A DNA stretch of 64,000 nt, taken from contig JAVKOQ020000030.1 of the NCBI GenBank assembly GCA_031835245.2, positions 62,001 through 126,000 on the forward strand. The letters run 5' to 3'. This document shows positions 38,501-64,000 of the stretch, one piece after another (position 1 is the stretch's first letter; the number at the start of each line of letters is the position of its first letter). The notes under the pieces were generated by a model. The model searched no databases and was not told the origin of the DNA. It saw nothing but the letters and a program-made list of their open reading frames with translations. The position numbers and the translations under genes are program-made. The stretch is from Balamuthia mandrillaris. Taxonomy: Eukaryota.

Positions 38501-41500
38501 TTATTCTGCGGTCAACGACCGAAGAATCTCCGCAAAGGTTGGCCTTTTCGTAATGCAAATCATGCGGTCAGAACGAGAGAAGGGGATGGGAAGCAAGGAA
38601 GGACGAACCGTTCAGCAGGAGAGAATGCCCAACAGGACAGCATCACGGTGCGAAGAATGGGAGGCGTGTCTTCTGGCGGCACCAACAGCGATGCCTTTTG
38701 TTGACAAACGCGAATGGCAGCGTTGACGGGGGACAAGCCATCATAAGGAACCGCTCCAAACGACGCTATCTCCCACAAACATACTCCAAAGCTTTTTTGG
38801 ATTAGAATAGAGATAAACGTAAACATTTTTAAAACAGGAGAGCATGACAGAGCGGAAAGCAAACCTCCAAACGTCTGACTTTTCAGAATAAACATGTTCT
38901 TCAATGGCCTCTGGTGCCATCCTGCATTTGTATCACAAAATATGAACAGTTTGTTTGTTAGACGCCTTTCGTTTGTTGCAAGAGGTAAGGTAAACAAACC
39001 ATTTGAGCGGTCCGACTTCTTTCGTTGTCTTTTGAATTCCTCCGATCTTCTCCATTTGTCTTGACATTCCAAAGTCTATCAACAATAGGTTTGCAATAGT
39101 GCGTTGTAAAAGAGCGTCAAAAAGAGAGGAGACTAAGAGAGAAAGCATACCAGCAACTTTGACTCGCAAGCGTTTGGTGAGAAGAAGATTTCTGGTGGCC
39201 AAATCGCGATGCGTTATTCCCTCTGAGTGCAGATGATGCATTCCACCTTTGTGTTTCAGAGAAGCGTTAAAAGAGGTGATAACAAAACGCGCAAAGCATA
39301 AACGAACTTGCAATATCGATGGCCCATCTGAACATGATGCCATGGTCGATCTTGGCGTGGTTGTTCAACAAGTAGCTGTTGAGGTCTCCCTGATGCATGA
39401 ACTCAGTCACAATGCAGAACGGTTTGTCCTCCTCACTCACAATGCCCAACAGTCGAATGACATTTCCGTGTGGGCGAACTGCTCTGTAGATGAGTTAAAA
39501 ACACGGCGCTGCGTAAGTATGAAACAACAAAAACAAAAGAAGAGTGTAACAGGACGAACTTGAGGGTCTGCGCTTCCAATTGAAGGTCGTTAAGCTGCTC
39601 TTCATCCATGGTGTGTAGTTTCTTGATGGCCACTGGAGAGTTCCTCCACATTCCTCTCCACACTTCGCCAGAGGCACTTTAACAAGAAACTCATCAACAC
39701 ACGAAAGGTCAAGAATGGAGGACAGTAAAGTACCCTTCGCCGATCTTTTCGATGAATCTCAGCTCGTCACATGCGATCTCCCATTGGTCTCTGACCTCCA
39801 TTTCTAGCCCCTCTTCGTCCGCATCGCTGTCTTCATCGGTGCGCTCACCGGATTCCAGTGCTTTAAACTGGGATGCAATATCCTCTTCTTTCGTCGCAGC
39901 GACCATCTGTAATCTTCTCCGTCTCCACCACACTCCGACTCCAATGGCAGTCATCAATACTAAGAGTAGCACTATCACAATCACAACGATTGGCACAATC
40001 ACTTTGGTCCGCTCGTCGTCACTGCTCTCTTCTTTATCTTCGTTGTTTGAACTTTCCTCTTCTGACGGTGTCAAGGAAAGGGTGAAAGAAGGGCTGCTGC
40101 TGTTCACCAAAGCATTCATGGCTGACTTAAGCATCAAAGTCACAGTTGGCTCTTCCTCTTGCTTCCTTTTCCCTCTCGCCTCTTCTACCCATGAGTGAGT
40201 CAGTCAGTTAAAACAGAACCAAAAAGGGAGAGAGATGACTGGTGAAACACAAACCAAACAATTCAGCAGGAACAAAGGCAGAGAGCTCAACAGAAGTGGA
40301 TGTCTGGTCTGGTTCAAACCTCAGAGGAGAAGAGGACAACACCACTACATCCTCCTCTGCAAGATTCGTTTCCACTTCAAACTCCACCTCAATGCCAAAC
40401 TTTGGTTTGGCTGACAGTTCCACCTCAAATGTGACCTTCAACTCCAGTGTTTGCTGTGTGCCTGGCTTGCTGTGCTCTTCCTCTTGTTCAACAAAAGTTG
40501 CTGCAGTGACAGTAATCCGAATGCCATCCATCACAAGAACGGTAAGACTCGCTACATAACATTGTTATAGGTTAAAACATGCGTCGAGAAAGTGAATGGC
40601 ACCAAAAAACATCAACCTCCTGAGCTATGTGCAAGGACAAGGTCCATAATGGAGTCGTCGTTGGCGTCAAGTACAGCAGCGGCCATGGCAGGGAAACCAG
40701 ACCCCACATTGTAATATGAATGTCCAGTAATGTTGCCGGTGTTGCCCAAAAACAAGAACCACACATGTCCTTTAAAAACAAGAGCGTCAGTACGTTGGTT
40801 GAAGAGCAAGGCAAAACAACATGAACAAAAGTACCGACCGTCCCCTTCTAGGTTAAGCACCAAATCAGGGAAATGGTCATTGTTGAAGTCAGCAGAAGAA
40901 AACCTTTCCTCTTCTGTCAAGGCCGCCTCGTTGCCCATGCTCTTTATCTTCCCTTCAAACCAACTGAAGCTGATCCTGGCCGGGTTATTGACGGCTTCCG
41001 AAGAGTGAACGCGAAAGTCTTTGACTCCGCCATCCGGTGTGAGAAACAAGATGAGTAGGTAGCCGTGCTTGCCTGATCGTGTTGTTACTGCCATGTCTGG
41101 TGTGTTGTCTCCATCCAAGTCGCCCAGCCCTGTTTGTATTTTGGACGCCCGTCTGATTATTAGAAACGACAGAACAAGAAGAAAAAGTGGTAGAACTCTT
41201 TTTAGAAGAAGAAGAAGAAGAAGAAGAAGAAGAAGAAGAAGAACAAGAACAAGAACAAGAACAAGAAGAACAAGAAGAAGAAGAACAAGAAGAAGAACAA
41301 GAACAAGAACAAAAAGAAGAACAAGAAGAAGAAGAAGAACAAGAAGAAGAAGCAGCAGCAGAAGTAGAAGAACAACAAGGAGATGAAGAAGAAGAAGAAG
41401 AAGAACAAGAAGCAGAAGAACAAGAATAACAATAAAGAAGTAATAGAGAAGGAAATACCTGTGATAGTGTTGGCAAAGTCGGACGCTTGAAATCCCAACT

Positions 41501-42424
41501 CATCCGGAGAAGCAAAAGCACGGGTAGAATTATCAGGAACGAGAGTAATGGTGCTGACGTTGAGCACGTCCAAACTGTCGTCCAAGAAAAGGATGTGAAC
41601 GGCTGTACCTTCATCTATTTGCCGTCGGTGGTCGCCCGTAACGGCGATGTCACCAACGCCGTTGTTGTCGATGTCACCGACATACCTGTTTGTTGTTTTG
41701 TTTTTATGGTTGTGAGACGGGGCGCCGTTGATGCTGTTACCAAGAAGACTTTGTAATAGGACGTACGTGACGGCGATTCCAAAGGCGTACTCGCTTGGCA
41801 GGGCCAAACCGGCGTTGTAGCGTTGTTGGAAAACAGGAAAACGGGACAACGGAGGCTGGTCAATGGCCAAGGTTATGAAGTGGGTGGTGTTGAAGAAGAA
41901 GTCCTCCGTCTGACTGCTTATGTACACTCTGTTTGGGCCTTTTTGGTCCGTTTCGTTAAACGTACAGTACAACGCGAATACAGCATAAAGCTTCAAAACA
42001 GATACTTACTCGCATCTTCTTCTTCTTCTCCAGTAACAGCTATTTCCAGCCGTCCATCTCCGTTCAAGTCCGTCAAAGGAGCTATCACAGCACCAACGGC
42101 TGGAATTTCAGCAAGGGATGAACTCCTGTTTCCCCAGGGGATGAACTCCTGTTGCTTCATCTCCTTCGTGGTGCCGTTGGCATGAAAGGAGAAATCATAC
42201 AAGGTGTTCCCGCGACACAAGGCGAGACGGGAGCCAGCAGAGGTAGGGTCGCTCTCTAAGGCGGCAAGCCCCGTCCCTGTCTGCTGCAGCTCCTTGTGCT
42301 GCAGCAGAAGCTTCTCCGCGACCAGGTAATTCCCCCATGCCACCTGGGCTTTAACCCCACCAGCCAGCACCGCCACCCACAACCACAACAACAACCACAA
42401 CGGCACTCTCCACGTCACCTTCAT
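38501..42424 (-). CDS. FG-GAP repeat receptor kinase, type A copy 1
   Basis: Signal peptide; DLNGDGRLEIAV, DIDNNGVGDIAV, DLDGDNTPDMAV, DFNNDHFPDLV; TM; IGEGASGEVW..VAIK..HRDLATRN..DFG..GPLKWMAPE. Confidence 0.85.
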
Positions 42425-42841
42425 CCGAACAGTTGTTCTCTTTCTTTGGTGCCTGCCGAGTCGCTGGTTGGTAGTTGCTCTGTCCGTTGTTCTTTGTGAT
42501 TCCAGGAATCTCTTCATACGTGCTATAATGAATTATGAGCAATTCCGCCGTTATAGCCACTCTTTAGATTTGTTTTCTTTATATGGGCTTTTTAAATAAG
42601 TTGAAATAGTGCTATTGGTGGTTCGGCCCACAATATGAACCGCTGTTTTTGCTTTTATGCGGGTTACCTATCATAACAGAACTTAAATTCCGTTAAGTGA
42701 GGAAGAGACAACCGACCGACACTCCCGTTCTTTCATATTTTAGAGGCGTCCTCTTTTGGGTTTTATTACAGTTCTCTTTCGTTCTTTTTGTTCAGAACAC
42801 CACAGTACCTGCACACACATACGAACAAACCCATCCACATT

Positions 42842-45800
42842 ATGCAGTCGCGCTTTGTTTGGGGACTGCTGCCGGTTCTCCTTCTGAGCCTCGCCCTGGC
42901 CGCCACAGGTAACCCCTTGTTAAGGGTCATAAAAAAATAACAAAAAACTAAACTCTGATATCCATTTTCATTTTTTTTTAAACAAAACGATGCCATAGTC
43001 CTTGGGCAGGCAGCGGGAGATGATATCTACAACAGGAACTATGGTATCGGGGACGTGCGCGGCATCGGCCCCGGCAGAAAAAACGGAATACCTGCAGATG
43101 AGGGTCTGTACTCATGGCCCCTGTCCCTCTGTTATCTTGGCCAAGTCGATGGTGACCTTCACGCCATCGCCTCTGGCCTTGGAGGCGCTGGTAACATTTG
43201 TCTCTCCTTTTTTTTTTCCTGTTGTTTGGCTCTCTTGTCTTTTTTCTCTAACATTTGTTTTGTGTGCAGACACTTCGGGTGGAATGCTGAAGCTACTCCT
43301 CAACGACTCCATCGAGGTGGACAGTTATGAGGTCATCGGTTCTCCCTATGAGGCCTACCATTTTTTTTATGGCTTCACGATCGTTTCCTTGACGGACCTT
43401 AACTCTGACGGCAAACTAGAAGTTGCAGTTGTGGCTCCCTCCGACCAAGGCAGCACCTATGGTTTGTTTTTCTTTGCCCTCGCATCTTTCCAGCCTTGTC
43501 TTTGTTCCGCCGCATCGCCTTTGACCTTTTATTAACATAACAAAACAGCGTATATCTACTCCATGAACTCGGACGGCAGTTTGGAGGACGAGCCTCGCCT
43601 TATGCTGTCTCCCACTGAACCTCCGTTGAACCAATTCTCTCCCTTCTCTGAGCTGGACTACTCGGAATGGTATAGGAATGGTGATGATGTTCCTCATGAC
43701 CTGACGTGCGTTCCTCTTGTTGCTTTCTTATTTGTCCAATATGCTTTCTTCTTATCTTGGTTATTCCTTTCCATCCATCTCGGTATGCAAGTTACTTGGG
43801 CGACTTGGATGGGGACGGCGTGGGGGAGATTGTGCTCAGCGGTCCGCGAAGGACGAACAATTACAGAGGTGAGATCTACGTGGTCTATATGAATGCTGAC
43901 CTCACCATCAAGGACGTGAAGACCATCACTTCCTGCCACAACTGTACGCCGGATTATCCGGACTACGGAGACGGCTACGATGGGGGCAGCAGTTGGTGGT
44001 TTGAACGAGAGGTTGATGTTGAAGACGAGATGCATCCCGACTCCATCTTTTTTGGCTCCAGTGTTACAGGTACCTGGTTTTTGTCTGCTCACATCTCATC
44101 TTTCTCTCTCATTCTAAGCCTCCACCCAATACACAGGACTTGGAGATCTGGATGGTGACAACATTCCTGATCTGGCAGTAGGAATGGAAGGAGCTTATTC
44201 CTTTCCCAAAGGCGCCATCTTTATTCTGTTCCTCAACAGCAACGCGACGGTCAAAGCCATGCAAGAGATCTCCATTTTTGAAGAGAGCTCTGGGTTGAAC
44301 CTTCCCTACACTGTTAGTCCTTATGGTGGGGTGGAAGTTATCATTGGAAACAGCACCTACTTTTGGTCTGGTTTTGGCGACCACATCCGAAACATCGGAA
44401 ACGAAGGAGCTCTGACGGAGGCCGAGCGGTTCGGTCCTTCCATGGACTGGAACCACGACCAAGTTCCTGATCTTCTTGTCACCTGGGGATTTCCAAGTAA
44501 GCCGCCTTCCTTGGTTGTCTTTAGCTTGTTCTAAGTCGCATTCGTCTTTCGTTTTTTGTTGTCCTTAGCATTTGTTTGGTTGATGTTGTTGAACCCGAAT
44601 GGAACTGTGAAGGGACTTGTGGACTTAACGACACCTGAGCTGTACGGAGAGAAAGTATCCCCTGCAGCTGACTTGAACGGTGATAACATCCCCGATTTCA
44701 TGATAACCAATTCTCATGCAAGTATGTGCCCCGCGTTCCTGTTTTCCTCTCTTGCTCGTTCTCTCTTGCTCACCCACTTTGTTAACATTCTCTTCTATCA
44801 GTTTCTGGAGGACCAGGCACAATAGACATTTTGTTGATGAGCTCCATCACTGTCAATGTGACTTCCACCTCCTTGAACCTCTCTTCCATTGATGCCAGAA
44901 AACGACAAAGCACAGGGTCAGCAAGCTTCCTGGTGGAGGTGTCCTCTGCACCATGGGAAGAGATCGTGGTTCCATTTTCAGTGGAGAGCACCTCTGGAAT
45001 CGACCCCAACACCATCAGCGTTTCTGTGGACAGTCCTTTGACCTTCCTCGGCGAGACCACCTCTGCAGTCATCGAAGTTACTTTCGAGTACCCAGAACAG
45101 TCAACAGAGGAAGAAGGGTTGCGAGTGGTGCTGGAGCAACCCAGGGGTGCGTATCTTCAACAAGGCCAAGGCTCATCCTTCCTTGTCGTGAATGAGGTCG
45201 AAGAATCACCCCTACAAGCAAAAGCAGAGGAGGATGACAAAGTTGGAGCAGAAGTGATCGCTCCAGTGGTGGTGGTGGGTGTGTTGCTGGTGGTTCTTGT
45301 GGTGGGCATCATTGTGGCAGTGCTGTTGGTCCGTTCTCGTCGTGCTCGCAAGAACATGGCCACTCGAGAGATGGACATGGAAGAAGGCCAAACCCATTAT
45401 TATCAAGCATCTGCCCTGGGCATGAAAGACAAAGCAGAGACCAAAAGAAGAAAATCCACCAAGAAGAACAATGACAAGGGAATGCAGAACTGGTTCATTA
45501 ACCGCAAAGAATTGGAGTTCATCGAAGAAATTGGACAAGGGTACGTTCTCTCGCTCTCTCTTTTTCTCCTCTTGATGCTCACTCAAATGTCATATATTAG
45601 CGCATTCGGAGTGGTGTGGAAAGGAGCATGGAGACAAACAGAAGTGGCCATCAAGAAGCTTCACACCATGGATGACGAACAGCTTGATAGCTTCCAACAT
45701 GAGGCACAACTCATGAGGTTCACCTCTCTCCGTAATGGTTTTTCAAAACAAAAACACTAAAAAAAACGTACATATACCCACAGAAACCTGAGACCACACC

Positions 45801-46777
45801 CGAATGTGGTGCAGCTGATGGGATTGGTGGAGGAGGATGGCATGCCGGAATGCATCGTGACGGAGTTCCTTGCCAACGGGGATCTCTTGTCTTATCTCCG
45901 CAAGCAAGACACCTTGCCACCGAAGAACTTGATTTCCATGGCCTTTGATGTCGCCGGTTTGTTGTTGTTGTTGTTTTTTCGTACGTGAGAGCTAATGAAT
46001 TTATTCTTCAAACCGATCAAAAATAAAGCTGGAATGGCTCATTTGCATGCAGAAGGAATCACGCACAGAGACTTGGCAGCCAGGAACCTGCTGATGACAG
46101 AAGACCTGAACATCAAAGTTTCAGGTAAACAACCCTTCCATTCTTCATTCAATCACCCATCTCGAATCTTACTAACCAACAACGGGATAATGCAGACTTT
46201 GGGTTGTCAAGAAAGCTGAAGCTGCAAGGAGCAGAGCAGAAGACCAAACAGGAAGTTGGCCCTTTGAAATGGTTCGCCTTTTTTTTTTTTGAATGTGCGT
46301 GTGTTTGTTTGCTCATCTCTGTTGTCTCCCATGAAACAGGATGTCTCCAGAAGCCATTCAAGAGAGCATTTACTCTGAAAAGTCCGACGTTTGGAGGTTT
46401 GTTTATTTTTCTTTTGTATTTGCACATCAAAGAAGCTAACATTGGAGTAACACAATGGCAGTTATGGCATCTGTTTGTGGGAGATCGTCACTTTGGGTGA
46501 AGAACCATTTGGTGATACCAGCGTAATGAAGGCTGCCGTCAAAATCTGCAATGAAGGCTGTTCGTATTTCTTCTTTCTTTCGTTGCTTCTTTGTTCGCAG
46601 CTTTCTCACTGCTGTTGTTCTCTTGTTCTTCGGACCAAAATAGGCAAGGCACTGCGCATTCCAAAAGGCACGCCAGAGGTCTTGAAGGAGATCATCTTGT
46701 CCTGTTGGCAGGTGGATCCCAAGGACAGACCCACTTTTGCTGAGATAACCAAAAAGTTGGAGTCAGCTTCGCTTTAA
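42842..46777 (+). CDS. FG-GAP repeat receptor kinase, type B copy 1
   Basis: MQSRF signal peptide; DLNSDGKLEVAV, DLDGDGVGEIV, DLDGDNIPDLAVG, DLNGDNIPDF; TM; IGQGAFGVVW..HRDLAARN..DFG..GPLKWMSPE. Confidence 0.85.
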
Positions 46778-46948
46778 AATTGGTAGCTCACCTGGACACT
46801 TGCAGTCGTTTGTAAATTATTTAGCAGTGGTTTTGATAATTAGTGTTTGCTGTGTTCCATTTGTTCCAACGAAAAAAAAAGTCAACACCGCTTTGTTGTT
46901 TCTTTGAGTGAGAAGAAAGAGAGAGGTTAGAGAAGCAGAGGAGAGCGC

Positions 46949-46979
<31 letters not shown>

Positions 46980-47089
46980 CAAAGAGGAGAGGCAACTACA
47001 GAAGTGAGCTAGGAACAGATAAACACATGGAATCCAATTCTTTTTGCAGTTTACTAAAATATACAAAAGGAATGTTTCAGCATGGATTG

Positions 47090-50000
47090 CTATTCTTCTT
47101 TTAAAGATTGAAGTATATCCTCAAAAGTTGGCCTGAACGAACCACATCAAAACAACCAATCAGTTCTCACATTCATTTACATGAAGGGAGGTTAGAGAAT
47201 CAGAGGAGAGCAATGGCGAAGAAAGAAGAAGTAAGAAAATGATAGGAATCAAAGACGAACCGTTCAGCAGGAGAGAACGCCCAACAGGACAACATCACTG
47301 TGCGAAGAATGGGTGGTATGTCTTCTGGTGGCACCAACAGCGATGCCTTTTGTTGACAGACGCGAATGGCAGCATTGACGGGAGACAAGCCATCATAAGG
47401 AATGGCTCCGAACGATGCTATCTCCCACAAACATACTCCAAAGCTTTTTTTGGATCAGAATAAATAGATAAACAAAAACATTTTTAAAACTGCAGAGCAT
47501 AGCAGAGCGGAAAGCGAACCTCCAAACGTCTGACTTTTCAGAATAAACATGTTCTTCAATGGCCTCTGGAGCCATCCTGCATTTGTATCACATTGTCCTA
47601 TGAGATGCCAATACCTTCTATTTGTTACAAGAAAAAAGGTAAAAACAAACAAACCATTTGAGTGGTCCAACTTCTTTTGTTGTCTTTTGAATTCCTCCAA
47701 CCTTCTCCATCTGTCGTGACATCCCAAAGTCTGGTGTCGTTGTTTCAGTTGTATAACAGAAATAGGATGAGAGGAAACCGTGAGACAGTAATTAAAATGA
47801 AAGCGAAGAAAGTAGAGTGTTACCAGCAACTTTGACTTGCAAGCATTTGGTGAGAAGGAGGTTTCTGGTGGCCAAATCACGATGTGTTATCCCTTCTGAA
47901 TGCAGATGATGCATTCCACCTTTTTGTTTGTTTGTTACAACAAGAAGACAAAGAAGACATAAACCCAACAAGAAAAGCACAAACGAACTGGCAATATCAA
48001 CGGCCCATTTGAGCATGATATTATGGTTGATCTTGGCTTTGTTGTTCAACAAGTAGCTGTTGAGGTCTCCCTGATGCATGAACTCAGTCACAATGCAGAA
48101 TGGTTTGTCCTCTTCACTCACAATGCCCAACAGTCGAATGACGTTTCCATGTGGGCGCAAAGCTCTATCATGAGAACAAAATTGATTAAAAAACTGAAAA
48201 GAATGATGATGTTTGATAAAAAAAACAAACTTGAGGGTTTGAGCTTCCATCTGAAAGTCTTGAAGCTGCTCTTCATCCATGGTGTGTAGTTTCTTGATGG
48301 CCACTGGAGAGCTTCGCCACATTCCTCTCCACACTTCGCCAGAGGCACTAAAGTAAACCACAAAAGAAAAAATATGAACTAAACAGATAAGCATAATGAA
48401 AGTGAGGTGCATACCCTTCACCAATCTTTTCAATGAACTTCAATTCTTTGTACATGATGTCCCATTGGTCTCTGGCCTCTATCACGAAATCCTCTTCTTC
48501 CCCATCTTCATCATCGTTGAAATCACCCCCTTCTAGTGCTCCATACTGTGATGCAATCTCCATTTCTGCTTTTGTGGCAGCAACCATCCTCTGATTTCTT
48601 CGTCGTCGCCACCACAAACCAACTCCGATAGCAGTCATCAATGCCAACAGAACCACCACCACTGTCACAACGATTGGCACAATCACTCTAGTTTGATCTT
48701 GTTCAGCATTGCTTTCTTCTGTCTGGTCTTTACTTGACGAGCTTTCTTCTGGTTTTATCAATGCCAACGTGAAAGAAGGGTTGCTATTGTTCACCAAAGC
48801 ATTCATGGCTGACTTCAGCACCAAAGTCACAGTTGGCTCTTCCTCTTGCTTCCTTTTCCCTCTACCTTGCTCTGCCCAGAGTGGTTGGTTGGTTAAATTA
48901 GTCACAAAACTTAAATAAAAAAAAGAAACAAACACAAACCAAACAATTCAACAGGAACAAAGGCAGAGAGCTCAACAGAACTGGATGTCTGGTCTGGTTC
49001 AAACTTCAGAGGAGAAGAGGACAACACCACTACATCCTCCTCTGCAAGATTTGTTTCCACTTCAAACTCCACCTCAATGCCAAACTTTGGTTTGGCTGAC
49101 AGTTCCACCTCAAATGTGACCTTCAACTCCAGTGTTTGCTGTGTGCCTGGCTTGCTGTGCTCTTCCTCTTGTTCAACAAAAGTTGCTGCAGTGACAGTAA
49201 TCCGAATGCCATCCATCACAAGAGCACTAAGACGTCCTATTATATAAATAAAGTGTTCATTAATAATGAACCAGCAGTTTCAGATAGATAAGAGAAAACA
49301 CACTAACCTATTGTTCTACCAACTATAACTACATCTGGAATGCTGTCATCATTTACATCAGCCACAGCTGACGCTGTTGCATAATATTGACTCCCCAGCC
49401 CATAGTACATATTACCAGTAATGTTCCCCATATTATTTAAAAACAATATCCATACATCTCCTACATAACAGGAACAGGAAGAAGGAAAAAGATGAAGAAC
49501 AACAAGGACAAGAGTAAGGAAAAAAATAATAAAAACAGCATTAAATAGAGGACCTTCTTCAGCATAGTACAGCACTAAATCAGGGCAATGGTCATTGTTG
49601 AAGTCAGCCGAAGAAAACCGTTCCTCCTCTGTTAAGGCCGCCTCGTTGCCCATGTTCTTTATGCTGGCACCAAACCAGCCAAATTGGGTGGCAGTGGGCG
49701 TAGATGGGCTGTATGCAGCGTCCGAAGAGTGAACACGATAGTCTTTGATGCCACCATCCGGCGTGAGAAACAAGATGAACAAGTAGCCAATCATGTTTGT
49801 TCGTGCTGTTACTGCCATGTCTGGTGTGTTGTCTCCATCCAAGTCACCCAGTCCTGTCGGTGTTTTTCACGCCAACAAAAGATCAGAACATTATCATGGC
49901 GCCACAACAAGGGTGAACATCAGTGGACTGAGGATGAACAAAGAATAACAAAGTAGAAGAAGAACAAGAAGAACAAAGATGAAGAATGAACAATGAAGAA

Positions 50001-51035
50001 CAAGAACATAGAAGCCAAACAAAGAAAGGAATACCTGTGATGGTGCTGGCAAAGGCACCTGCTTGGAATCCCAATTCAGCCGCCGAAGCAAAGGCAGGGA
50101 TGGTGTCATCGGGAAAGAGAGTAATGGTGCTGACGTTGAGAACATCCAAACTTTCGTCCAAGAAAAGGATGTGAACAGCTGAACCTATTGACGAGTGGTC
50201 TCCTGACTCAACTCTGTGGTCTCCTGTGATGGCGATGTCTCCCACTCCATTGCGATCGATGTCTCCAACAAAGCTTTTAAACATACATAGCTAAGCAAAA
50301 GAAAAACAGAGAGAAGAGAGAGAGAAAAAGAGAGAAAGAGAGAGAGAGAGAAAGAGAGAGAGAGAACGAAAGAGAGCGGAGAAAATAAGTACGTGATGTC
50401 GATTCCAAAGGCGTACTCGCTTGGCAGGGCCAAACTGGCATTGTAGCGTTGTTGGAAAACAGGAAAACGGGACAACGGAGGCTGGTCAATGGCCAAAGTT
50501 ATGAAGTGGGTGGTGTTGAAGAAGAAGTCCTCCGTCTGGCTGCTTATGTACACTTTGTTTGGGTCTTTTTGTGGTTGTGTATGTATATTTATTTGCGAAC
50601 CGTTAATCTTAAGAAGAAAACAACTAGGATGTACGTACAGCCTTGTGGCACCTCTCCAGTAACAGCTATCTCCAGCCGCCCGTCTCCGTTCAAGTCCGTC
50701 AAAGGAGCTATCACCGCCCCGAAGCCAGAAACACCTTCCTGGTCGTGCACGTACTCCTTGACCTCTCTCTCCGTTCCGTTGGGGTGATAGGAGACCTCAT
50801 AGATGGTGGTCGTGTGGAGCCGGCCTTCGCCTACAGCAAAACGGCAGCCCGCAGCGCCGGGAGCGCTCTCCAAGGAAGCAAGCCCGCTCCCAAACCCCAC
50901 AAACTGCGTGTTGGGCAGCACCAGCTCCGCAGAGACAAGATAGTTCCCAAAGGAAAACCTCTGGGCTTTAACCTCTACCTGCCAAACCAACAATAACAAC
51001 AACCACAGCAACAAAGAACAAGTTCTCCGCTTCAT
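47090..51035 (-). CDS. FG-GAP repeat receptor kinase, type A copy 2
   Basis: Paralog of 38501-42424 with a near-identical stalk and kinase. Confidence 0.85.
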
Positions 51036-51336
51036 TCGCCCCGTTCCCTCTGTTATTCGGTTGAGTTCGTTGTAGACCGTTGAACTCCGTTCTTTCGTCC
51101 AGCTTGCTTGTAAGTGGACCAAATGCAATTAATATAAGCGTTACATACGAGCGTTTATTGCTTAAAGCCACCCGATTATTGGCGGGTCTAAAGGCCTCAT
51201 GGTAAAGGAAACTTGCTTCGCCTTGTTACGCAGAGTGTTACTCCAGGCAACAAGCTGTGCTAATAACCAGTTTTATTTTTTTTAAAAAAAAAAAAACAAG
51301 TCCACAAGAGTCCACACCACCAACCAAAAACCCCAT

Positions 51337-54300
51337 ATGCAGTCACGTTTTGTTAGCAGGACGTTGTCGTTCCTCCTTCTGGGCCTGGTCCTTGCAGCCA
51401 CAGGTACCTCTTTCAAGTTTAGTGTTTTGGAGTTTGTTACCTTAAAAAAAATACCAAAACCGTTTTATTTTTGTTTAGTTAACGGGCAGGAAGAAGGAGA
51501 GAGCATCTACAACAGGAACTATGGCATCGGGGAGGTGCGTAACATCGGCCCCGGCAAGAACAACGGCATACCTGCAGCGGAGGACCTGTACATATGGCCA
51601 CAGTCCCCCATTTACCTCGGCAGAGTCGCCGGTGGCTCTCACGCCATTGCCACCGGTATCGGCAGCGTCGGTAAGGCTCGGGCCTGTTCTGTTTGTCTCC
51701 TGGATTTTTTTTTGTTTGTTTGTACTAAAGACTTTGCCCTCTTTGTTGAACAGACTATGACTATTCCGGCGGGGTTATGACCCTCCGTCTGAACGACTCC
51801 CTCCACGTGGAGAGTTATGAGTTCATGGCTTCGCCCTATGACGACTACTCACTTGACTTTGGTGAAAGCTACTTTCGATACGGCACCACGCTTGTACCCT
51901 TAACGGACCTCAACTCCGACGGGAAACTGGAAGTGGCTGTCGTGGCTCCCTCGGATGAACGCAGCAGTTATGGTTTGTTTTGTCGCCCGCTGTTTTTCCA
52001 TCCCATGAAACTCTCCATTCACCTTTCCTTGGAAAAACACGCAAAACAAAACAGCGTTCGTCTACTCCATGAACGCAGACGGCACCTTAGAGTCAGAGCC
52101 TCGCCTCACTCTGTCTCCCACTGAACCACCGTTGAACCAATTCCTTCCCTTCTCTGAGCTTGATGATGATGAATGGTACTATCCTGGCTCTGATGTACCT
52201 AATGACCTGACGTGCGTTCCCTCATCTTTCCTCTTACTTCTTTCTTCTTTCTTCTTACTTTTTTCTTCTTTCTTTATTGTTTTATCGTTCTCCTGTGTAC
52301 CCTTCTGTTTTGTGCTTAGTTATTTGGGAGACTTGGATGGAGACGGAGTGGGCGACATCGTGCTGAGCTGTCCCTGGCGAATCGGCAACACGCGAGGAGA
52401 AGTCTTTGTGGTCTACATGAATGATGACTTCACCATCAAGGACGTAAAGAGCATCTCGTCCTGTAGCAACTGCCCCTGGGGCGCTGCTAGACGTGGTTAT
52501 GAAAGAGAAGTCGATGTGGAAGACCAGATGCCTCCTGACTCCCGCGACTTTGGTTCCAGTATCACTGGTACATTCATTTACTACATCTCTCTCTTTCTCT
52601 CTCTCTCTCTCTCTTCTTTCCCTTACCACCACAAAACCAGGGCTAGGAGACCTGGATGGTGACAACATTCCCGACCTGGTAGTAGGAATGGAAGGAGCTC
52701 GTTTCTCTCAGGGCGCCATTTTCATTCTGTTCCTCAACCGCAATGCCACGGTCAAAGCCTTGCAAGAGATCTCCATTGTTGAAGAGAGCTCTGGGTTGAA
52801 CATTCCCTACACTGTTGATCCTTATGGTGGGGTGGAAGCTATCATTGGTAACAGCTCCTACTTTGTGTTCGGGTTTGGTGAACACGTGCGAAACATCGGA
52901 AACGAAGGAGCTCTGACGGAGGCCGAGCGGTTCGGTCCTTCCATGGACTGGAACCACGACCAAGTTCCTGATCTTCTTGTCACCTGGGGATTTCCAAGTA
53001 AGTTTAGCTTTCCCGTTGTTTGTCATTGCTTGCAAATGGTTTAATGCAGTCCTTGTTTCTTTTTCCAAAGAATTCGTTTGGTTGGTGTTGCTGAATCCAA
53101 ACGGAACTGTGAAGGGACTTGTGGACTTGTCCAGAACTGACCAAGGAATGATGTATGGTGAAGCAATTGTCCCTTCTGCCGACTTCAATGGAGATGAAAT
53201 CCCTGATTTTATGGTTTCTAATTCCCACGGTGGTACGTTCCTCACTTCTTCTCTCTTTTACTTGCTCTTCAAAGGTTCTTCTTATGCTTCTTCATCTGTT
53301 TCCTCATTCTTCCAATGTTCTCATATCTTAAATAAACTCTTTGTCATCAACAGATATAGGAGGACCAGGCACTATCGACATTTTGTTGATGAGCTCCATC
53401 ACGGTCAATGTGACCTCCACCTCCTTGAACCTCTCATCCATTGATGCCAGGAAACGACAAAGCACGGTGTCAGCAAGCTTCCTGGTGGAGGTGTCCTCTG
53501 CACCATGGGAAGAGATCGTGGTTCCATTTTCAGTGGAGAGCACCTCTGGAATCGACCCCAACACCATCAGCGTTTCTGTGGACAGTCCTTTGACCTTCCT
53601 CGGCGAGACCACCTCTGCAGTCATCGAAGTTACTTTCGGTTATCCAGGTACTTTTCTGTTTGTTCTTTGTTGTCGGCTCCTTCTCTCATACTGTTTTGCA
53701 ACATGTGCTCTCTACCTCAGAGAATTCAACAGAGGAAGAAGGTTTGCGAGTGGTGCTGGAGCAACCCAGGGGCGCGTATCTGCAACAAGGCCAAGGCTCA
53801 TCCTTCCTTGTCGTTAAAGAGATCGATGAACCTGTCGAACCCGAACAACAAAAAGGGTCCAGTGAAGATGAAGTGGGAGCAGAAGTGATCGCTCCAGTGG
53901 TGGTGGTGGGTGTGTTGCTGGTACTTCTTGTGGTGGCCATCGTTGTGGCAGTGCTGTTGGTGAGGTCTCGTCGTGCTCGCAAGAACATGGCCACTCGAGA
54001 GATGGACATGGAAGAAGGCCAAACCCAATATCAAGCATCTGCCCTGGGCAAGAAAAACAAAGAGGAGACAGGCGATAGAAGAACGTCTAGCAAGAAGAAG
54101 AACAATGACAAGGGAATGCAGAACTGGTTCATCAACAGAGAGGATTTGGAGTTCATCAAAGAGATCGGACAAGGGTTCGTTCTCTCGCTCTCCGTCCCCA
54201 TTTCTCTCCCTCTCTCTCCCTCGCTCTCTCTCCTCCCTCTCTCCCTTTCTCTCTCCCTCTCTCGCTCCCTCCTTTCCCTCTTGCTAGGGCTAACAGGAGG

Positions 54301-54725
54301 AATGTGTTGCAGAGCATTCGGAGTGGTGTGGAAAGGAGCATGGAGACAAACAGAAGTGGCCATCAAGAAGCTTCACACCATGGATGACGAGCAGCTTGCC
54401 AGTTTCCAACATGAAGCGCAACTCATGAGGTCCGCCTTTTCTTTGTTTTTTTTGTTTTTCTTTGTGGTTTTGTTCTTGCTTTTTATCTACCACAAAGGAG
54501 CACTTACACTTTAAAACAAAAAAATAAAAACAACTCACACACAACAGAAACCTGAGACCACACCCGAATGTGGTGCAGCTGATGGGATTGGTGGAAGAGG
54601 ATGGAATGCCGGAATGCATCGTGACCGAGTTCCTTGCCAACGGGGATCTCTTGTCTTATCTCCGCAAACAAGACCAATTGTCTGAAGAGAGCATGATCGC
54701 CATGGCCTTAGATGTCGCTGGTTTG

Positions 54726-54763
<38 letters not shown>

Positions 54764-55642
54764 TCTTTGTTTGTCTCTCTTCTCTCTCTTGATACAAGGA
54801 GATAAAAGGATTGATTGTTTTTCTTATCAAAAATAAAGCTGGAATGGCTCATTTGCATGCAGAAGGAATCACGCACAGAGACTTGGCAGCCAGGAACCTG
54901 TTGTTGACGGAAGACTTGAACATCAAAGTTTCAGGTGAACACCAGCTCCTTATCACATTCACCCATCCCAGCTTGCTAAAAGAGTCATACTAACCAACAA
55001 CGGGTAATGCAGACTTTGGGTTGTCAAGAAAGCTGAAGCTGCAAGGAGCAGAGCAGAAGACCAAACAGGAAGTTGGCCCTTTGAAATGGTTCGCTTTTTT
55101 TTGGTTTTTTGAATGTGTGTGTTTGTTTGCTCATCCTGTTGTCTCCCATGAAACAGGATGTCTCCAGAAGCCATTCAAGAGAGCATTTACTCTGAAAAGT
55201 CCGACGTTTGGAGGTTTGTTTTGTTTTTCTTTTGTATTTGCTCACATCAAAGAAGTCCTAACACCTGAGTAACACAATGACAGTTATGGCATTTGTTTGT
55301 GGGAGATCGTCACGTTGGGGGAGGAACCGTTTGGTGATACTCACATCATGAAGGCCGCCGTCAAAATCTGCAATGAAGGCTGTTCGTATCCCTTTCGCCT
55401 CTTTCTCTCTCCGCCTCTCTCTTCTCCCTCTTTTGCACGCGCTCTCTCTCTCTTTCGCTCCTGTGCTCCGCCTCCTGTTGTTGCTGGAATGCTAACAGTT
55501 ATAAACAGGCAAGGCATTGCGCATTCCGAAAGGCACGCCAGAGGTCTTGAAGGAGATCATCTTGTCCTGTTGGCAGGTGGATCCCAAGGACAGACCCACC
55601 TTTGCGGAGATTACCAAAAAGTTGGAGCCAGCTTCGCCTTAG
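51337..55642 (+). CDS. FG-GAP repeat receptor kinase, type B copy 2
   Basis: Paralog of 42842-46777; carries one extra intron at 53648-53720. Confidence 0.85.
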
Positions 55643-57696: not shown

Positions 57697-57739
<43 letters not shown>

Positions 57740-58137: not shown

Positions 58138-58178
<41 letters not shown>

Positions 58179-61929: not shown

Positions 61930-62130
61930 TTATGACGACGCTGTACGCAACAGTTTGGTTATTTCAGCAAAGGTGGGTCTGTCCTTGGGATCCACCTGCC
62001 AGACAAGATGATCTTTCTCAAGACCTCTGGTGTGCCTTTTGGAATGCGCAGTGCCTTGCCTGTTTGTTGTTGTTTTTTACAGTTAGCAACAACAGGAAGA
62101 AAACATGAGAGAGAGAGGGGAAGAAGAGGC

Positions 62131-62170
<40 letters not shown>

Positions 62171-64000
62171 GAGAAATACGAACAGCCTTCATTGCAGATT
62201 TTGACGGCAGCCTTCATGACGTGAGTATCACCGAATGGTTCCTCCCCCAACGTGACGATCTCCCACAAACAAATGCCGTAGCTATGAGACCATTTGTTTT
62301 GCATGAGCATGAGGCAAGAAACGAACAAAAACAGCGAAAACAAGCAAAAAACAAAACAAACCTCCAAACGTCGGACTTTTCAGAGTAAATGCTCTCTTGA
62401 ATGGCTTCGGGAGACATCCTGTTTCATGGGAGACAACAGGGATGAGTAAACAAAGCGCAACAAGGTAGAATACAGGCAAAACGAACAAGCACATTCAAAA
62501 AACAAAGCGAACCATTTCAAAGGGCCAACTTCCTGTTTGGTCTTCTGCTCTGCTCCTTGCAGCTTCAGCTTTCTTGACAACCCAAAGTCTGCATTATCCC
62601 GTTGTTGATGAGGACGTTTGCTTTAGCACATGAATGTGGCGGAACGGGAAGGGTTGTTTACCTGAAACTTTGATGTTCAAGTCTTCCGTCATCAGCAGGT
62701 TCCTGGCTGCCAAGTCTCTGTGCGTGATTCCTTCTGCATGCAAATGAGCCATTCCAGCTTCATTTTTGATGAGAAAAACAATCAATCCTTTTATCTCCTT
62801 TTATCAAGAGAGAGCGAAGAGAGAGAGAGAGAGAGAACAAACCGGCCACATCAAAGGCCATGGCGATCATGCTCTCTTCAGACAATTGGTCTTGTTTGCG
62901 GAGATAAGACAAGAGATCCCCGTTGGCAAGGAACTCGGTCACGATGCATTCCGGCATTCCATCCTCTTCCACCAATCCCATCAGCTGCACCACATTCGGG
63001 TGTGGTCTCAGGTTTCTGTTGTGTGTGAGTTGTTTTTATTTTTTTGTTTTAAAGTGTAAGTGCTCCTTTGTGGTAGATAAAAAGCAAGAACAAAACCACA
63101 AAGAAAAACAAAAAAAACAAAGAAAAGGCGGACCTCATGAGTTGCGCTTCATGTTGGAAACTGGCAAGCTGCTCGTCATCCATGGTGTGAAGCTTCTTGA
63201 TGGCCACTTCTGTTTGTCTCCATGCTCCTTTCCACACCACTCCGAATGCTCTGCAACACATTCCTCCCGTTAGCCCTGATACAAAAGAAAAGCAAATGAC
63301 AAAGAGGAGAGCGAGAGCGAGAGCGAACGAACCCTTGTCCAATCTCTTTGATGAACTCCAAATCCTCTCTGTTGATGAACCAGTTCTGCATTCCCTTGTC
63401 ATTGTTCTTCTTGGTGGATTTTCTTCGTTTTGTCTCCTCTTTGTTTTTCTTGCCCAGGGCAGATGCTTGATAATACTGGGTTTGGCCTTCTTCCATGTCC
63501 ATCTCTCGAGTGGCCATGTTCTTGCGAGCACGACGAGACCTCACCAACAGCACTGCCACAACGATGGCCACCACAAGAAGTACCAGCAACACACCCACCA
63601 CCACCACTGGAGCGATCACTTCTGCTCCCACTTCCTCATCCTCCTCTGCTTTTGCTTGTAAGGATGGAACCTCTTTAACGACAAGGAAGGATGAGCCTTG
63701 GCCTTGTTGCAGATACGCGCCCCTGGGTTGCTCCAGCACCACTCGCAAACCTTCTTCCTCTGTTGACTGTTCTGGGTACTCGAAAGTAACTTCGATGACT
63801 GCAGAGGTGGTCTCGCCGAGGAAGGTCAAGGGATTGGCCACAGAAACGCTGATGGTGTTGGGGTCGATTCCAGAGGTGCTCTCCACTGAAAATGGAACCA
63901 CGATCTCTTCCCATGGTGCAGAGGACACCTCCACCAGGAAGCTTGCTGACCCCGTGCTTTGTCGTTTCCTGGCCTCGCTGGATGGGAGGTTCAAGGAGGT
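61930..64000 (-). CDS. FG-GAP receptor kinase type B copy 3 (3' part; 5' end lies outside the window)
   Basis: Stalk, TM and kinase near-identical to B1/B2; ends PTFAEITKLLRTASS*. Confidence 0.85.

What the first reader, a model, noticed from the sequence alone, without database searches (positions are those of the whole stretch)
38501..55642. Duplicated head-to-head A/B pairs of integrin-alpha-like (FG-GAP) receptor kinases
Seen: the order is A1(-) B1(+) A2(-) B2(+), and each pair shares a short divergent intergenic region (417 and 301 bp between ATGs). Both types have a signal peptide, several DxxxDG-type FG-GAP repeats, a beta-rich stalk, one TM and a kinase. They share a distinctive motif (GNE.ALTE.ERF...D.N.D..PDL). 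Established: FG-GAP repeats build the integrin-alpha beta-propeller; HRDLA(A/T)RN and PLKW..PE are tyrosine-kinase-type signatures; head-to-head receptor pairs occur in Dictyostelium tgrB1/tgrC1 allorecognition. Inference: co-regulated heterodimeric adhesion or recognition receptors with a built-in kinase, inherited as a unit.
Basis: partly seen in the sequence, partly recalled or inferred. Interest (0 to 1): 0.8.

Follow-up and report, generated by a model that had tools for sequence, protein, structure and literature searches.

The report
Paired propeller receptor kinases, Balamuthia
Two neighbouring head-to-head gene pairs in the amoeba Balamuthia mandrillaris encode membrane receptors that join a predicted integrin-like propeller outside the cell to a tyrosine-kinase-type enzyme inside, and the two members of each pair likely work together, which would be an unusual way to couple surface sensing to phosphorylation.

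Summary
Window 38501-55642 holds four intact, intron-rich genes of Balamuthia mandrillaris in the order A1(-) B1(+) A2(-) B2(+), with 417 and 301 bp between the divergent ATGs. Each encodes a signal peptide, an FG-GAP beta-propeller, a beta-sandwich stalk (predicted, Calx-beta-like), one TM helix and a kinase with tyrosine-kinase hallmarks.

A and B are ancient paralogues: 25-32% identity in the propeller, 52-56% in the kinase, and nine intron positions shared with identical phase. The whole pair was duplicated as a unit. A further A/B pair sits on another contig (consecutive accessions), and the A and B trees mirror each other.

A1 and B1 are both transcribed and correctly spliced. A2 and the B2 5' part are nearly silent in the same RNA runs.

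No ectodomain-collinear relative outside Balamuthia was found, and my searches found no paper describing an FG-GAP receptor tyrosine kinase.

Verdict: a new variant of a known kind (amoebozoan receptor tyrosine kinases). The heterodimer reading is plausible but untested.

The parts
38504..42424 (-). A1 coding region: 14 exons, 917 aa. Signal peptide, FG-GAP propeller, stalk, TM, kinase. Stop codon at 38501-38503.
   Evidence: Model built by projecting A2 splice sites onto A1 (12 of 12 acceptors AG and 11 of 12 donors GT at the projected places; exon-1 donor corrected to GTAAGT at 42009). No stop codons. 4 of its 13 introns are seen as RNA joints.
42425..42841 (.). Divergent intergenic region of pair 1 (417 bp between ATGs); presumed shared upstream/promoter region.
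   Evidence: No similarity to the pair-2 intergenic region beyond chance.
42842..46774 (+). B1 coding region: 15 exons, 962 aa (= P0001, KAL6073276.1).
   Evidence: Public protein reproduced exactly with GT-AG introns. 9 of 14 introns are seen as RNA joints, and an RNA contig matches 43548-44496 with 0 differences.
46778..47089 (.). Convergent spacer between the B1 stop and the A2 stop (312 bp); junction of the two duplicated units.
47093..51035 (-). A2 coding region (= P0007, KAL6073277.1). Corrected here to 14 exons, 920 aa.
   Evidence: The public model reads through an in-frame GT-AG intron at 49461-49553.
51036..51336 (.). Divergent intergenic region of pair 2 (301 bp between ATGs).
51337..55639 (+). 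B2 coding region: 16 exons, 966 aa (= P0003, KAL6073278.1).
   Evidence: It has one extra intron (53648-53720) that is precisely absent from B1 and B3.
61962..64000 (-). B3 (= P0002), residues 494-954 only. The gene runs off the window end. A 4-nt deletion in the last exon shifts the frame before the end of the kinase domain.
   Evidence: An RNA contig carries the same 4-nt deletion and B3's 3' sequence (tables 4 and 7).
44397..44474 (+). Invariant ectodomain motif GNEGALTEAERFGPSMDWNHDQVPDL in B1. Homologous sites: A1 40861-40935(-), A2 49576-49650(-), B2 52898-52975(+).
   Evidence: Predicted as a short helix inserted in a blade, at low confidence.
44804..45217 (+). B1 stalk: predicted beta-sandwich between the propeller and the TM helix.
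   Evidence: AlphaFold2 model with pLDDT 82.3 and pTM 0.74. The best Foldseek matches are Calx-beta domains and the integrin alpha thigh, at E 4e-4 to 2e-3.
45266..45331 (+). B1 transmembrane segment. Others: A1 39925-39990(-), A2 48609-48674(-), B2 53897-53962(+).
   Evidence: Hydrophobic run of 22 residues followed by R/K-rich residues.
45533..46738 (+). B1 kinase core, GxGxxG to CW..RPxF, with introns. Others: A1 38534-39741(-), A2 47123-48422(-), B2 54167-55603(+).

Best explanation
The locus holds two tandem copies of a head-to-head pair of paralogous single-pass receptor kinases of Balamuthia mandrillaris, and the A and B members of a pair are likely co-expressed from their short shared upstream region and would act together as a two-subunit receptor. 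Shown: each protein has a signal peptide, FG-GAP repeats with cation-loop motifs, one TM helix, and a kinase domain carrying every catalytic motif and the tyrosine-kinase hallmarks. A and B are old paralogues, the pair was copied as a unit, and A1 and B1 are transcribed and spliced. Predicted: the FG-GAP region folds into a beta-propeller, followed by a Calx-beta-like beta-sandwich stalk. Inferred: the propellers bind an external ligand or surface in a Ca2+-dependent way. Binding would bring an A and a B chain (or higher oligomers) together. The kinases would then phosphorylate each other on juxtamembrane tyrosines (YYQA in B1, YQA in B2; SQYG in A2 and other A proteins), because the activation segment has no tyrosine. 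These sites would recruit SH2-type readers of the kind described in Acanthamoeba.
For: Architecture: Pfam PK_Tyr_Ser-Thr at 272.6 and 277.3 bits (against Pkinase at 185.9 and 178.6), and FG-GAP/FG-GAP_3 above their cut-offs. Motifs are present in 4 of 4 window proteins. All 60 listed PDB sequence matches are tyrosine kinases for B2 and for A2. All 56 PDB matches of the ectodomain profile are integrin alpha chains, best E 6.5e-8. All 43 listed Foldseek rows for the ectodomain model are integrin entries, E 3e-14 to 2e-11. The stalk model has pLDDT 82, and 7 of its 10 matches at E<=0.001 are Calx-beta domains. Paralogy: A and B are collinear, with 9 intron positions identical in column and phase, and the A/B split has 100/100 support. 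Unit duplication: the two units are collinear at 74-86% DNA identity over both genes, introns included, with similar overall Ks (0.49 for A1-A2, 0.40 for B1-B2). Linkage beyond the window: B1, A2 and B2 carry consecutive accessions, which calibrates accession order as gene order. B5 (KAL6059708) and the A-type P0085 (KAL6059709) are consecutive on the 136,111-bp contig. B4 and a fused A-A model lie two accessions apart on the 359,051-bp contig. Mirrored trees: the earliest-branching A (P0085, 97/95) is the neighbour of the earliest-branching B (B5, 92/93). All three pair lineages kept both types under purifying selection (omega 0.27-0.31). Expression: RNA joints match 4 A1 introns and 9 B1 introns. 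A1 and B1 both have depth in X7, X8 and X1, while A2 and the B2 5' part are near zero in the same runs.
Against: No test of A:B binding was possible. Segmental duplication alone would keep neighbours together without any functional coupling. The mirrored topology of three lineages has a 1 in 3 chance of arising at random. The orientation of the B5/P0085 pair is unknown. P0008 (A-type) has no known B neighbour. On the 359-kb contig two A copies are fused in one model and one unidentified gene lies between them and B4. B3's partner, if any, is outside the window. The two intergenic regions share no motif beyond chance (2 shared 9-mers against a shuffle mean of 1.4). Both kinases look catalytically complete, so there is no obvious division of labour. 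RNA depth is about 1x in the raw runs. Many of those reads are only 95-99% alike (63 of 98 in X7, 69 of 137 in X8), some coverage over the B1 kinase comes from B3 transcripts, and X1 was found with an A1/B1 query. The ectodomain model has only moderate confidence (pLDDT 65).
Confidence: 0.45

Rival explanations
1. A and B are independent receptors. The head-to-head order is a relic of the inverted duplication that created them. Later segmental duplications copied both simply because they are 0.3-0.4 kb apart. Each type binds its own ligand and signals as a homodimer, and any co-expression reflects shared chromatin rather than a shared function.
For: Duplication tracts of about 8.6 kb necessarily carry both genes. 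Both kinases have complete catalytic motifs, so neither needs the other. The propellers are only 25-32% identical between types, which is compatible with different ligands. There is no conserved intergenic element. P0008 has no known B neighbour, and two A copies sit in tandem on another contig.
Against: Both types were retained, intact and under purifying selection, in all three pair lineages, where independent genes would often lose one copy. The on/off state in RNA is shared within each pair: pair 1 on, pair 2 nearly off. A 25-residue motif is invariant in both types, which suggests a common partner or mutual contact.
Confidence: 0.38
2. This is a self/non-self or prey/host recognition system of the tgrB1/tgrC1 kind. 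A on one cell would bind B on another cell in trans. Copies would diversify in the ligand-binding blades, and matching pairs would be inherited together.
For: The genes are paired and duplicate as pairs, as described for the paired tgrBC genes (passages of PMC12745789). The N-terminal blades are the most diverged part between copies (A1-A2 Ka 0.38-0.46 in residues 1-114), while the stalk is homogenised (Ks 0.025-0.05).
Against: No sliding window has omega clearly above 1. The maximum is 1.03, in the acidic linker before the TM, and the N-terminal blades are at 0.36-0.48. No population data were examined. Balamuthia is not known to me as a social amoeba (recalled). The ectodomain fold differs from Tgr proteins (their domain make-up is recalled, not tested).
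Confidence: 0.07
3. The kinase is not tyrosine-specific. It would be a dual-specificity or Ser/Thr kinase of tyrosine-kinase-like type, as in Dictyostelium and Entamoeba. This concerns chemistry only and is compatible with any of the readings above.
For: The activation segment has no tyrosine in any of the four proteins and contains Thr/Ser instead. No phylogeny with TK and TKL reference sequences was made. The Atlas feature search lists TGF-beta-receptor-type and oomycete kinases at scores of 0.88-0.90.
Against: HRDLAARN/HRDLATRN, PLKW..PE and CW..P..RPxF are present in 4 of 4. These are hallmarks of the TK group by established kinase classification (recalled). No TKL kinase appears among the 60 best PDB matches of either type. 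Acanthamoeba, a relative, is reported to have metazoan-like PTKs distinct from the TKLs of Dictyostelium and Entamoeba (passages of PMC4053784). CSK, which also lacks an activation-loop tyrosine (recalled), is among the top matches.
Confidence: 0.2
4. Pair 2 (A2/B2) is a decaying duplicate on its way to becoming pseudogenes.
For: Near-zero RNA depth over A2 and the B2 5' part in four runs.
Against: Both reading frames are intact across 14 and 16 exons with canonical splice sites. Omega is 0.27-0.31 against pair 1. Only a few growth conditions were sampled.
Confidence: 0.05

Closest known systems
Amoebozoan receptor-type tyrosine kinases (Acanthamoeba castellanii PTKs with a TM domain; Physarum single-TM TKs)
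   Same: Type I membrane topology with a metazoan-like tyrosine-kinase domain in an amoebozoan. 7 of 22 Acanthamoeba PTKs and 3 of 4 Physarum TKs are reported with TM domains (passages of PMC4053784 and PMC4758236).
   Different: Neither main text mentions FG-GAP (0 occurrences each), and their supplements were not read. The ectodomain here is an FG-GAP propeller plus a Calx-beta-like stalk, and the genes come as conserved A/B neighbour pairs.
Integrin alpha subunits, including the amoebozoan ITGA homologues of the integrin-adhesome preprint (10.1101/2020.04.29.069435)
   Same: Signal peptide, FG-GAP repeats with D/E-h-D/N-x-D/N-G-type cation loops, a beta-sandwich after the propeller, and one TM helix. 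Integrin alpha chains are the only solved structures matched by sequence profile (56 of 56), and integrin entries fill all 43 listed Foldseek rows.
   Different: No Integrin_alpha2 leg, only one stalk domain, and no GFFKR (0 of 10). The cytoplasmic part is a kinase of about 300 residues. The model fits six-bladed propellers best, and there is no evidence of a beta subunit. The preprint reports no ITGA in Acanthamoeba and loss from most Discosea (passages). It holds no occurrence of 'Balamuthia' (listing).
Bacterial FG-GAP/VCBS proteins with Calx-beta domains
   Same: The same two ectodomain modules. The nearest Atlas clusters by features (0.77-0.80, leads only) carry FG-GAP_3 plus Calx-beta. 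Metagenome propellers match at 22-31% identity over long stretches.
   Different: The bacterial proteins are mostly giant multi-repeat proteins (median length 1410 aa for the 147 new proteins; 9-29 matched stretches) without a kinase (146 of 147). None of the 69 metagenome loci matches the stalk.
Dictyostelium tgrB1/tgrC1 paired allorecognition genes
   Same: Two adjacent genes for single-pass surface proteins in an amoebozoan that duplicate and recombine as pairs (passages of PMC12745789). Their head-to-head orientation is recalled, not seen in the passages.
   Different: Tgr proteins have no kinase and no propeller (recalled) and are highly polymorphic. Here omega is 0.27-0.31 between copies, and no population data were examined.
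Plant CRINKLY4-type receptor kinases
   Same: A beta-propeller ectodomain, one TM helix and a cytoplasmic kinase (abstract of 10.1101/2020.08.10.245050 seen in the listing).
   Different: The propeller is of WD40 type with a cysteine-rich domain, the kinase is a plant Ser/Thr receptor kinase, and no paralogue pairing is described in the abstract.
Head-to-head plant NLR immune receptor pairs
   Same: Divergently arranged paralogous receptors that function as a pair (abstracts in the listing).
   Different: They are intracellular NLRs rather than membrane kinases. This is an analogy of gene arrangement only.

Membership tests
Protein tyrosine kinases (TK group; Pfam PF07714) | Catalytic loop HRDLAARN / HRDLRAAN type rather than HRDLKxxN | tested here: met
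   HRDLATRN in A1 and A2, HRDLAARN in B1 and B2. That this motif defines the group is recalled knowledge.
Protein tyrosine kinases (TK group; Pfam PF07714) | P+1 loop P-x-[KR]-W-x-x-PE and subdomain XI CW..P..RPxF | tested here: met
   PLKWMAPE / PLKWMSPE and CWAFSPAERP / CWQVDPKDRP in 4 of 4. B3 loses subdomain XI through a frameshift.
Protein tyrosine kinases (TK group; Pfam PF07714) | Profile and nearest-structure evidence | tested here: met
   PF07714 at 272.6 and 277.3 bits against PF00069 at 185.9 and 178.6. The 60 best PDB matches are all tyrosine kinases for P0003 and for P0007.
Protein tyrosine kinases (TK group; Pfam PF07714) | Placement inside the TK clade, apart from TKL, in a tree with reference kinases | not tested
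   No reference kinase sequences were available to the script machine.
Protein tyrosine kinases (TK group; Pfam PF07714) | Phosphorylates tyrosine | not testable with these tools
   Needs a kinase assay with phospho-amino-acid analysis.
Receptor tyrosine kinase architecture (type I) | Signal peptide, ectodomain, single TM, cytoplasmic kinase | tested here: met
   Read from the sequence in A1, A2, B1 and B2. No dedicated signal-peptide or TM predictor was run.
Integrin alpha subunit | FG-GAP repeats with cation-binding loops forming a beta-propeller | tested here: met
   Pfam FG-GAP/FG-GAP_3. 3-4 relaxed cation motifs per protein, one of them strict. 56 of 56 PDB profile matches are integrin alpha. 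A propeller fold is predicted.
Integrin alpha subunit | Seven blades | tested here: inconclusive
Integrin alpha subunit | Thigh, calf-1 and calf-2 leg (Pfam Integrin_alpha2) | tested here: not met
   No such Pfam match at E<=0.05 in 2 of 2 full-length proteins. Only one beta-sandwich of about 130 residues lies between the propeller and the TM helix.
Integrin alpha subunit | Short cytoplasmic tail with a GFFKR-type motif | tested here: not met
   0 of 10 family proteins have it. The tail is a juxtamembrane segment plus a kinase domain.
Integrin alpha subunit | Heterodimer with an integrin beta subunit | not testable with these tools
   No genome was held, so no search for a beta subunit was possible.
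Calx-beta domain (PF03160) | Profile match | tested here: not met
   No PF03160 match in the exon pieces at E<=0.1 or in the full-length proteins at E<=0.05.
Calx-beta domain (PF03160) | Fold | tested here: inconclusive
   7 of the 10 Foldseek matches at E<=0.001 are Calx-beta domains (NCX1 CBD1, integrin beta4), but E is only 4e-4 to 9e-4 and the integrin alpha6 headpiece chain (thigh region by my reading) scores alike.
tgrB1/tgrC1-type allorecognition pair | Adjacent paired genes that duplicate as pairs | tested here: met
tgrB1/tgrC1-type allorecognition pair | Diversifying selection or high polymorphism of the binding domains | tested here: inconclusive
   Between paralogues omega is 0.27-0.31 overall and at most 1.03 in a 60-codon window. 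No strain-level data were analysed.
tgrB1/tgrC1-type allorecognition pair | Heterophilic binding between the two products | not testable with these tools

The most novel reading that the evidence does not exclude
Balamuthia carries an ancient obligate two-chain 'integrin-kinase'. Two diverged propeller subunits (A and B), each with its own tyrosine kinase, are always inherited and switched on as a pair. They form a heterodimeric adhesion or recognition receptor that does in one complex what animals do with integrin alpha-beta plus FAK/Src. The several pair lineages, with diverged outer blades and a gene-converted common stalk, would give the amoeba a small repertoire of surface-recognition specificities for prey, matrix or host cells.
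Probability: 0.25. Interest if true: 0.8.

Novelty: new variant of a known kind. Interest (0 to 1): 0.6.

Why it matters
Phosphotyrosine signalling and integrin adhesion are both central to the origin of animal multicellularity, and both are now traced to amoebozoans. Here the two modules, an integrin-type FG-GAP propeller and a metazoan-type tyrosine kinase, are fused in one chain. This occurs in a member of the Discosea, a group reported to have mostly lost integrins (passages). If the kinase is tyrosine-specific and the propeller binds surfaces, this is an independent and simpler solution for coupling adhesion to pTyr signalling.

The conserved A/B pairing offers a compact natural system for asking why receptor paralogues stay linked.

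The proteins are also candidate surface receptors, with a druggable kinase domain, in an amoeba that causes a usually fatal encephalitis. A tyrosine-kinase inhibitor is mentioned among screen hits against this amoeba (passage of 10.1101/2025.02.25.640156).

Tried and rejected
- **Complex prediction of the A2:B2 propellers.** Nothing was folded, so there is no verdict.
- **Whole genome.** None is held, so no genome-wide count or orientation survey was possible.
- **Shared promoter element.** The global alignment is poor, and 2 shared 9-mers compare with a shuffle mean of 1.4. Rejected.
- **Positive selection.** No window is clearly above omega 1.
- **Word-based protein searches.** They miss distant relatives and did not return A1 itself, so absence there means little.
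- **Metagenome scan.** It gave 69 loci, all propeller-only matches (long matches 22-31% identical). None of the 69 matches the stalk. Two of the 69 carry a distant kinase 3-6 kb from the propeller match. There is no close relative among them.
- **Exhaustive profile search.** It found 26,529 proteins at E<=0.001, but the list of 150 stops near 300 bits, so weaker collinear relatives in other organisms cannot be excluded.
- **Atlas.** The ectodomain hits are below 0.9. The cluster at 0.92 with Pkinase/PK_Tyr_Ser-Thr in 100% of members and FG-GAP_3 in 88% (99 members, taxa known for 4) may be the query's own cluster. It is a lead that the domain combination is wider, not evidence.
- **Earlier scan notes.** Nothing was found.
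- **Filing the proteins as integrin alpha.** Rejected on the leg and tail features.
- **Literature searches for this architecture.** each found 0 papers. None of the 12 papers listed mentions FG-GAP.

Full report
**What is there.** The region is eukaryotic: reading frames are broken into short exons. A search with the largest B1 exon returned five proteins named by their source as Balamuthia mandrillaris.

Three of them map to the window: P0001 is B1, P0003 is B2, and P0002 is B3 (minus strand, residues 494-954 only, running off at 64000). A search with an A1 exon returned the A-type proteins: P0007 (= A2), P0008, and P0006, a 1482-aa model that fuses a partial and a complete A-type gene.

B1 (15 exons), B2 (16) and A2 (13 as annotated) are reproduced letter for letter with GT-AG introns of 60-181 nt. 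A1 was not among the proteins returned, so I modelled it by aligning the A1 and A2 regions. All 12 acceptors and 11 of 12 donors were AG/GT at the projected places, and the remaining donor is a canonical GTAAGT at 42009.

Both A genes have a further in-frame GT-AG intron, 69 nt in A1 and 93 nt in A2, which the public A2 model reads through. The final models are A1 with 14 exons and 917 aa, and A2 with 14 exons and 920 aa, without stop codons.

The finding's coordinates run exactly from the A1 stop to the B2 stop. The ATG-to-ATG distances are 417 and 301 bp, and B1 and A2 converge with 312 bp between their stops.

**Domain make-up.**
- Pfam gives PK_Tyr_Ser-Thr (272.6 and 277.3 bits) and FG-GAP/FG-GAP_3 above their cut-offs for a B and an A protein. 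It gives no Integrin_alpha2 and no Calx-beta match (exon pieces).
- All four window proteins have a signal-peptide-like N-terminus, one hydrophobic run of 22 residues followed by basic residues, and GxGxxG, VAIK, HRDLA[A/T]RN, DFG, PLKW..[A/S]PE and CW..P..RP. Each has three to four relaxed matches to the cation-loop motif, one of them strict.
- The activation segment has no tyrosine. A conserved juxtamembrane tyrosine (SQYG in A2; YYQA in B1, YQA in B2) is F in A1.
- The 60 best PDB sequence matches are all tyrosine kinases (Src/Abl ancestor, CSK, ABL, IGF1R/INSR, EGFR, Tec family, FES) for B2 and for A2.

**Ectodomain fold.**
- *Whole ectodomain.* An AlphaFold2 model of the B1 ectodomain (618 residues, 5-sequence alignment) has pLDDT 65.2 and pTM 0.68 and is all-beta. 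Foldseek lists only integrin entries in its 43 rows (E 3e-14 to 2e-11). A sequence profile of five ectodomains matches 56 solved sequences, all integrin alpha chains (best E 6.5e-8, stretches of 35-167 profile positions).
- *Stalk.* Folded alone from a B1 exon with 7 relatives, the stalk gives pLDDT 82.3 and pTM 0.74. It is a beta-sandwich, and 7 of its 10 matches at E<=0.001 are Calx-beta domains. The alpha6 integrin headpiece chain scores alike (E 4e-4 to 9e-4).
- *Integrin membership.* No GFFKR-type motif occurs in 0 of 10 proteins. These are integrin-alpha-like modules, not integrin alpha subunits.

**A versus B.** The two types are collinear from signal peptide to C-terminus. Nine intron positions coincide in alignment column and phase, and three more lie within 4-5 columns in the same phase.

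| Region | A vs B identity | A1-A2 | B1-B2 |
|---|---|---|---|
| Propeller | 25-32% | 68% | 73% |
| Stalk | 20-31% | 89% | 97% |
| TM/juxtamembrane | 22-33% | 61% | 78% |
| Kinase | 52-56% | 91% | 95% |

(All.) The motif G.E.ALTE.ER[FY]...D.N.D..[PR]D[LI] is present in 10 of 10 members and holds 12 of the 58 invariant ectodomain columns. In the model it is a short helix of low confidence inserted in a blade.

**History of the locus.**
- Unit 1 and unit 2 are collinear at 74-86% DNA identity over both genes, introns included. The divergent intergenic regions do not align.
- Ka/Ks is 0.151/0.493 (0.31) for A1-A2 and 0.108/0.402 (0.27) for B1-B2.
- Ks is mosaic. It is 0.025 (A) and 0.046 (B) in the first half of the stalk, and up to 1.6 and 1.4 in the propeller. 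This points to localised gene conversion on an older duplication.
- B2 keeps an intron that is precisely absent from B1 and B3.
- B3 has a 4-nt deletion in its last exon that shifts the frame before subdomain XI.

**Pairing beyond the window.** No genome is held, so I used accession order as a proxy for gene order. B1, A2 and B2 are KAL6073276, -277 and -278, which matches their order in the window.
- *Contig of 359,051 bp.* The fused A-A model is KAL6075743 and B4 is KAL6075745, with one unidentified gene between them.
- *Contig of 136,111 bp.* The exhaustive profile search listed 150 proteins, and four of them match nearly the whole ectodomain collinearly (P0004, P0006, P0007, P0085). Among the 147 that were new, only P0085 has a kinase. 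P0085 is an A-type protein with accession KAL6059709, next to B5 (KAL6059708) on this contig. Their orientation is unknown.
- *Trees.* In an 11-sequence tree A and B split with 100/100 support. P0085 is sister to all other A (97/95) and B5 is sister to all other B (92/93). {A1,A2} corresponds to {B1,B2,B3}, and the two P0006 copies correspond to B4.
- *Reading.* Three pair lineages with the same branching order is what duplication of an ancestral A-B pair as a unit predicts. For three lineages the chance of a random match is 1 in 3. P0008 (A-type, 78,262-bp contig) has no known B neighbour.

- *A1 and B1.* Listed joints match 4 of 13 A1 introns and 9 of 14 B1 introns. Contigs of X1 are spliced and match A1 (39734-40181, 40349-40768) and B1 (43548-44496) with 0 differences. 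A1 and B1 have depth in X7 and X8 (about 0.1-3 per bin) and in X1 (about 5-46).
- *A2 and B2.* Over A2 and the B2 5' part, depth is 0 in most bins, at most 0.77 in the raw runs and 1.27 in X1.
- *Caveats.* Depth is low and the libraries look unstranded. 63 of 98 (X7) and 69 of 137 (X8) reads are only 95-99% alike. X1 was found with an A1/B1 query. Part of the depth over the B1 kinase exons belongs to B3, whose transcript, with the 4-nt deletion and B3's own 3' end, is visible in tables 4 and 7. B2 beyond 52200 was not examined.

**Distribution and literature.**
- Long metagenome matches are 22-31% identical, uninterrupted, propeller-only. None of the 69 loci has the stalk, and 2 of 69 have a distant kinase kilobases away.
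- The profile search finds 26,529 proteins at E<=0.001. The listed ones other than Balamuthia's are large multi-repeat FG-GAP proteins, and the list ends near 300 bits.
- The Atlas offers one lead: a 99-member cluster with kinase families in 100% of members and FG-GAP_3 in 88%, at score 0.92. It may be the query's own cluster.
- TM-bearing PTKs are reported in Acanthamoeba (7 of 22) and Physarum (3 of 4) (passages). Amoebozoan integrin-alpha homologues are described, with none in Acanthamoeba (passages).
- Searches combining FG-GAP with tyrosine kinase or receptor tyrosine kinase found 0 papers. A recent Balamuthia genome preprint has 0 occurrences of integrin, FG-GAP or receptor in its main text. 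Supplements of these papers were not read and could list such architectures.

**Mechanism and verdict.**
- *Shown:* the gene structures, domain order, catalytic motifs, paralogy, unit duplication, a further adjacent pair, and transcription and splicing of A1 and B1.
- *Predicted:* the propeller and the Calx-beta-like stalk.
- *Inferred:* Ca2+-dependent ligand or surface binding, activation by dimerisation, tyrosine specificity, and above all that A and B act together.

I rate the architecture and unit inheritance as near certain, pair-wise co-regulation at about 0.6, and a physical A:B receptor at about 0.35-0.4. The main rival is that they are independent receptors kept together by segmental duplication. 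This is a new variant of amoebozoan receptor tyrosine kinases, not a categorically new system.

**Surroundings.** The flanking genes are unrelated: a queuine tRNA-ribosyltransferase (36.7-38.3 kb, minus strand), a Ser/Thr kinase (56.6-58.3 kb, minus strand), which explains a stray tblastn hit at 56878-56997, and a sulphur-transport-family membrane protein (60.3-61.7 kb, plus strand).

Noticed in passing
window 61962-62057 (B3 last exon, minus strand): B3 has a 4-nt deletion relative to B1 and B2 that shifts the frame and replaces the end of the kinase domain (subdomain XI) with ...ILSGRWIPRTDPPLLK. An RNA contig and reads carry the same deletion and B3's 3' sequence, so this truncated kinase is transcribed and is not an assembly error.
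   Followed up: partly
window 49461-49553 (A2) and 40770-40838 (A1): The public A2 protein model reads through an in-frame GT-AG intron, inserting 31 hydrophobic residues into a propeller blade. A1, although expressed, was not returned by the protein searches.
   Followed up: yes
window 53648-53720 (B2 intron 8) against B1 near 45095 and B3 near 63771: This intron is precisely absent from B1 and B3 while A genes have an intron 4 columns away in the same phase. It is a clean intron loss shared by B1 and B3, which groups them against B2 in this segment.
   Followed up: yes
stalk exons: A1 about 40255-40551 with A2 48940-49236; B1 about 44900-45080 with B2 53450-53647: Synonymous divergence drops to 0.025-0.05 in the first half of the stalk in both the A pair and the B pair, against 0.4-1.6 elsewhere. 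Gene conversion appears to have homogenised the same domain in both genes.
   Followed up: partly
window 41130-41458 (A1 intron 3): This 329-nt intron is filled with trinucleotide and low-complexity repeats (translated as poly-L/E/K/F runs in different frames). The homologous A2 intron is 181 nt. The read-laying tool skipped 41195-41440 as a repeat.
   Followed up: no
window 45910-46028 and 46396-46466: Two non-canonical RNA joints (AC..AA, and GT..AT with 4 extra letters) appear in the B1 kinase region. They most likely come from transcripts of a paralogue such as B3 laid on B1, but this was not resolved.
   Followed up: no
A1 residue about 625 (window about 39865) against A2, P0008, P0006 and P0085: The conserved juxtamembrane tyrosine of A-type proteins (SQYG) is phenylalanine in A1 (SQFK). 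No family member has a tyrosine in the kinase activation segment.
   Followed up: partly
proteins P0006 and P0085 (other contigs): P0006 fuses a partial and a complete A-type gene into one 1482-aa model. P0085 lacks a short conserved stretch before HRDLATRN and ends prematurely, so both public models probably need correction.
   Followed up: no
window 36676-38366(-), 56602-58282(-), 60347-61745(+): The flanking genes are a queuine tRNA-ribosyltransferase (TGT), a Ser/Thr protein kinase, and a Sulf_transp-family membrane protein, all unrelated to the finding.
   Followed up: partly
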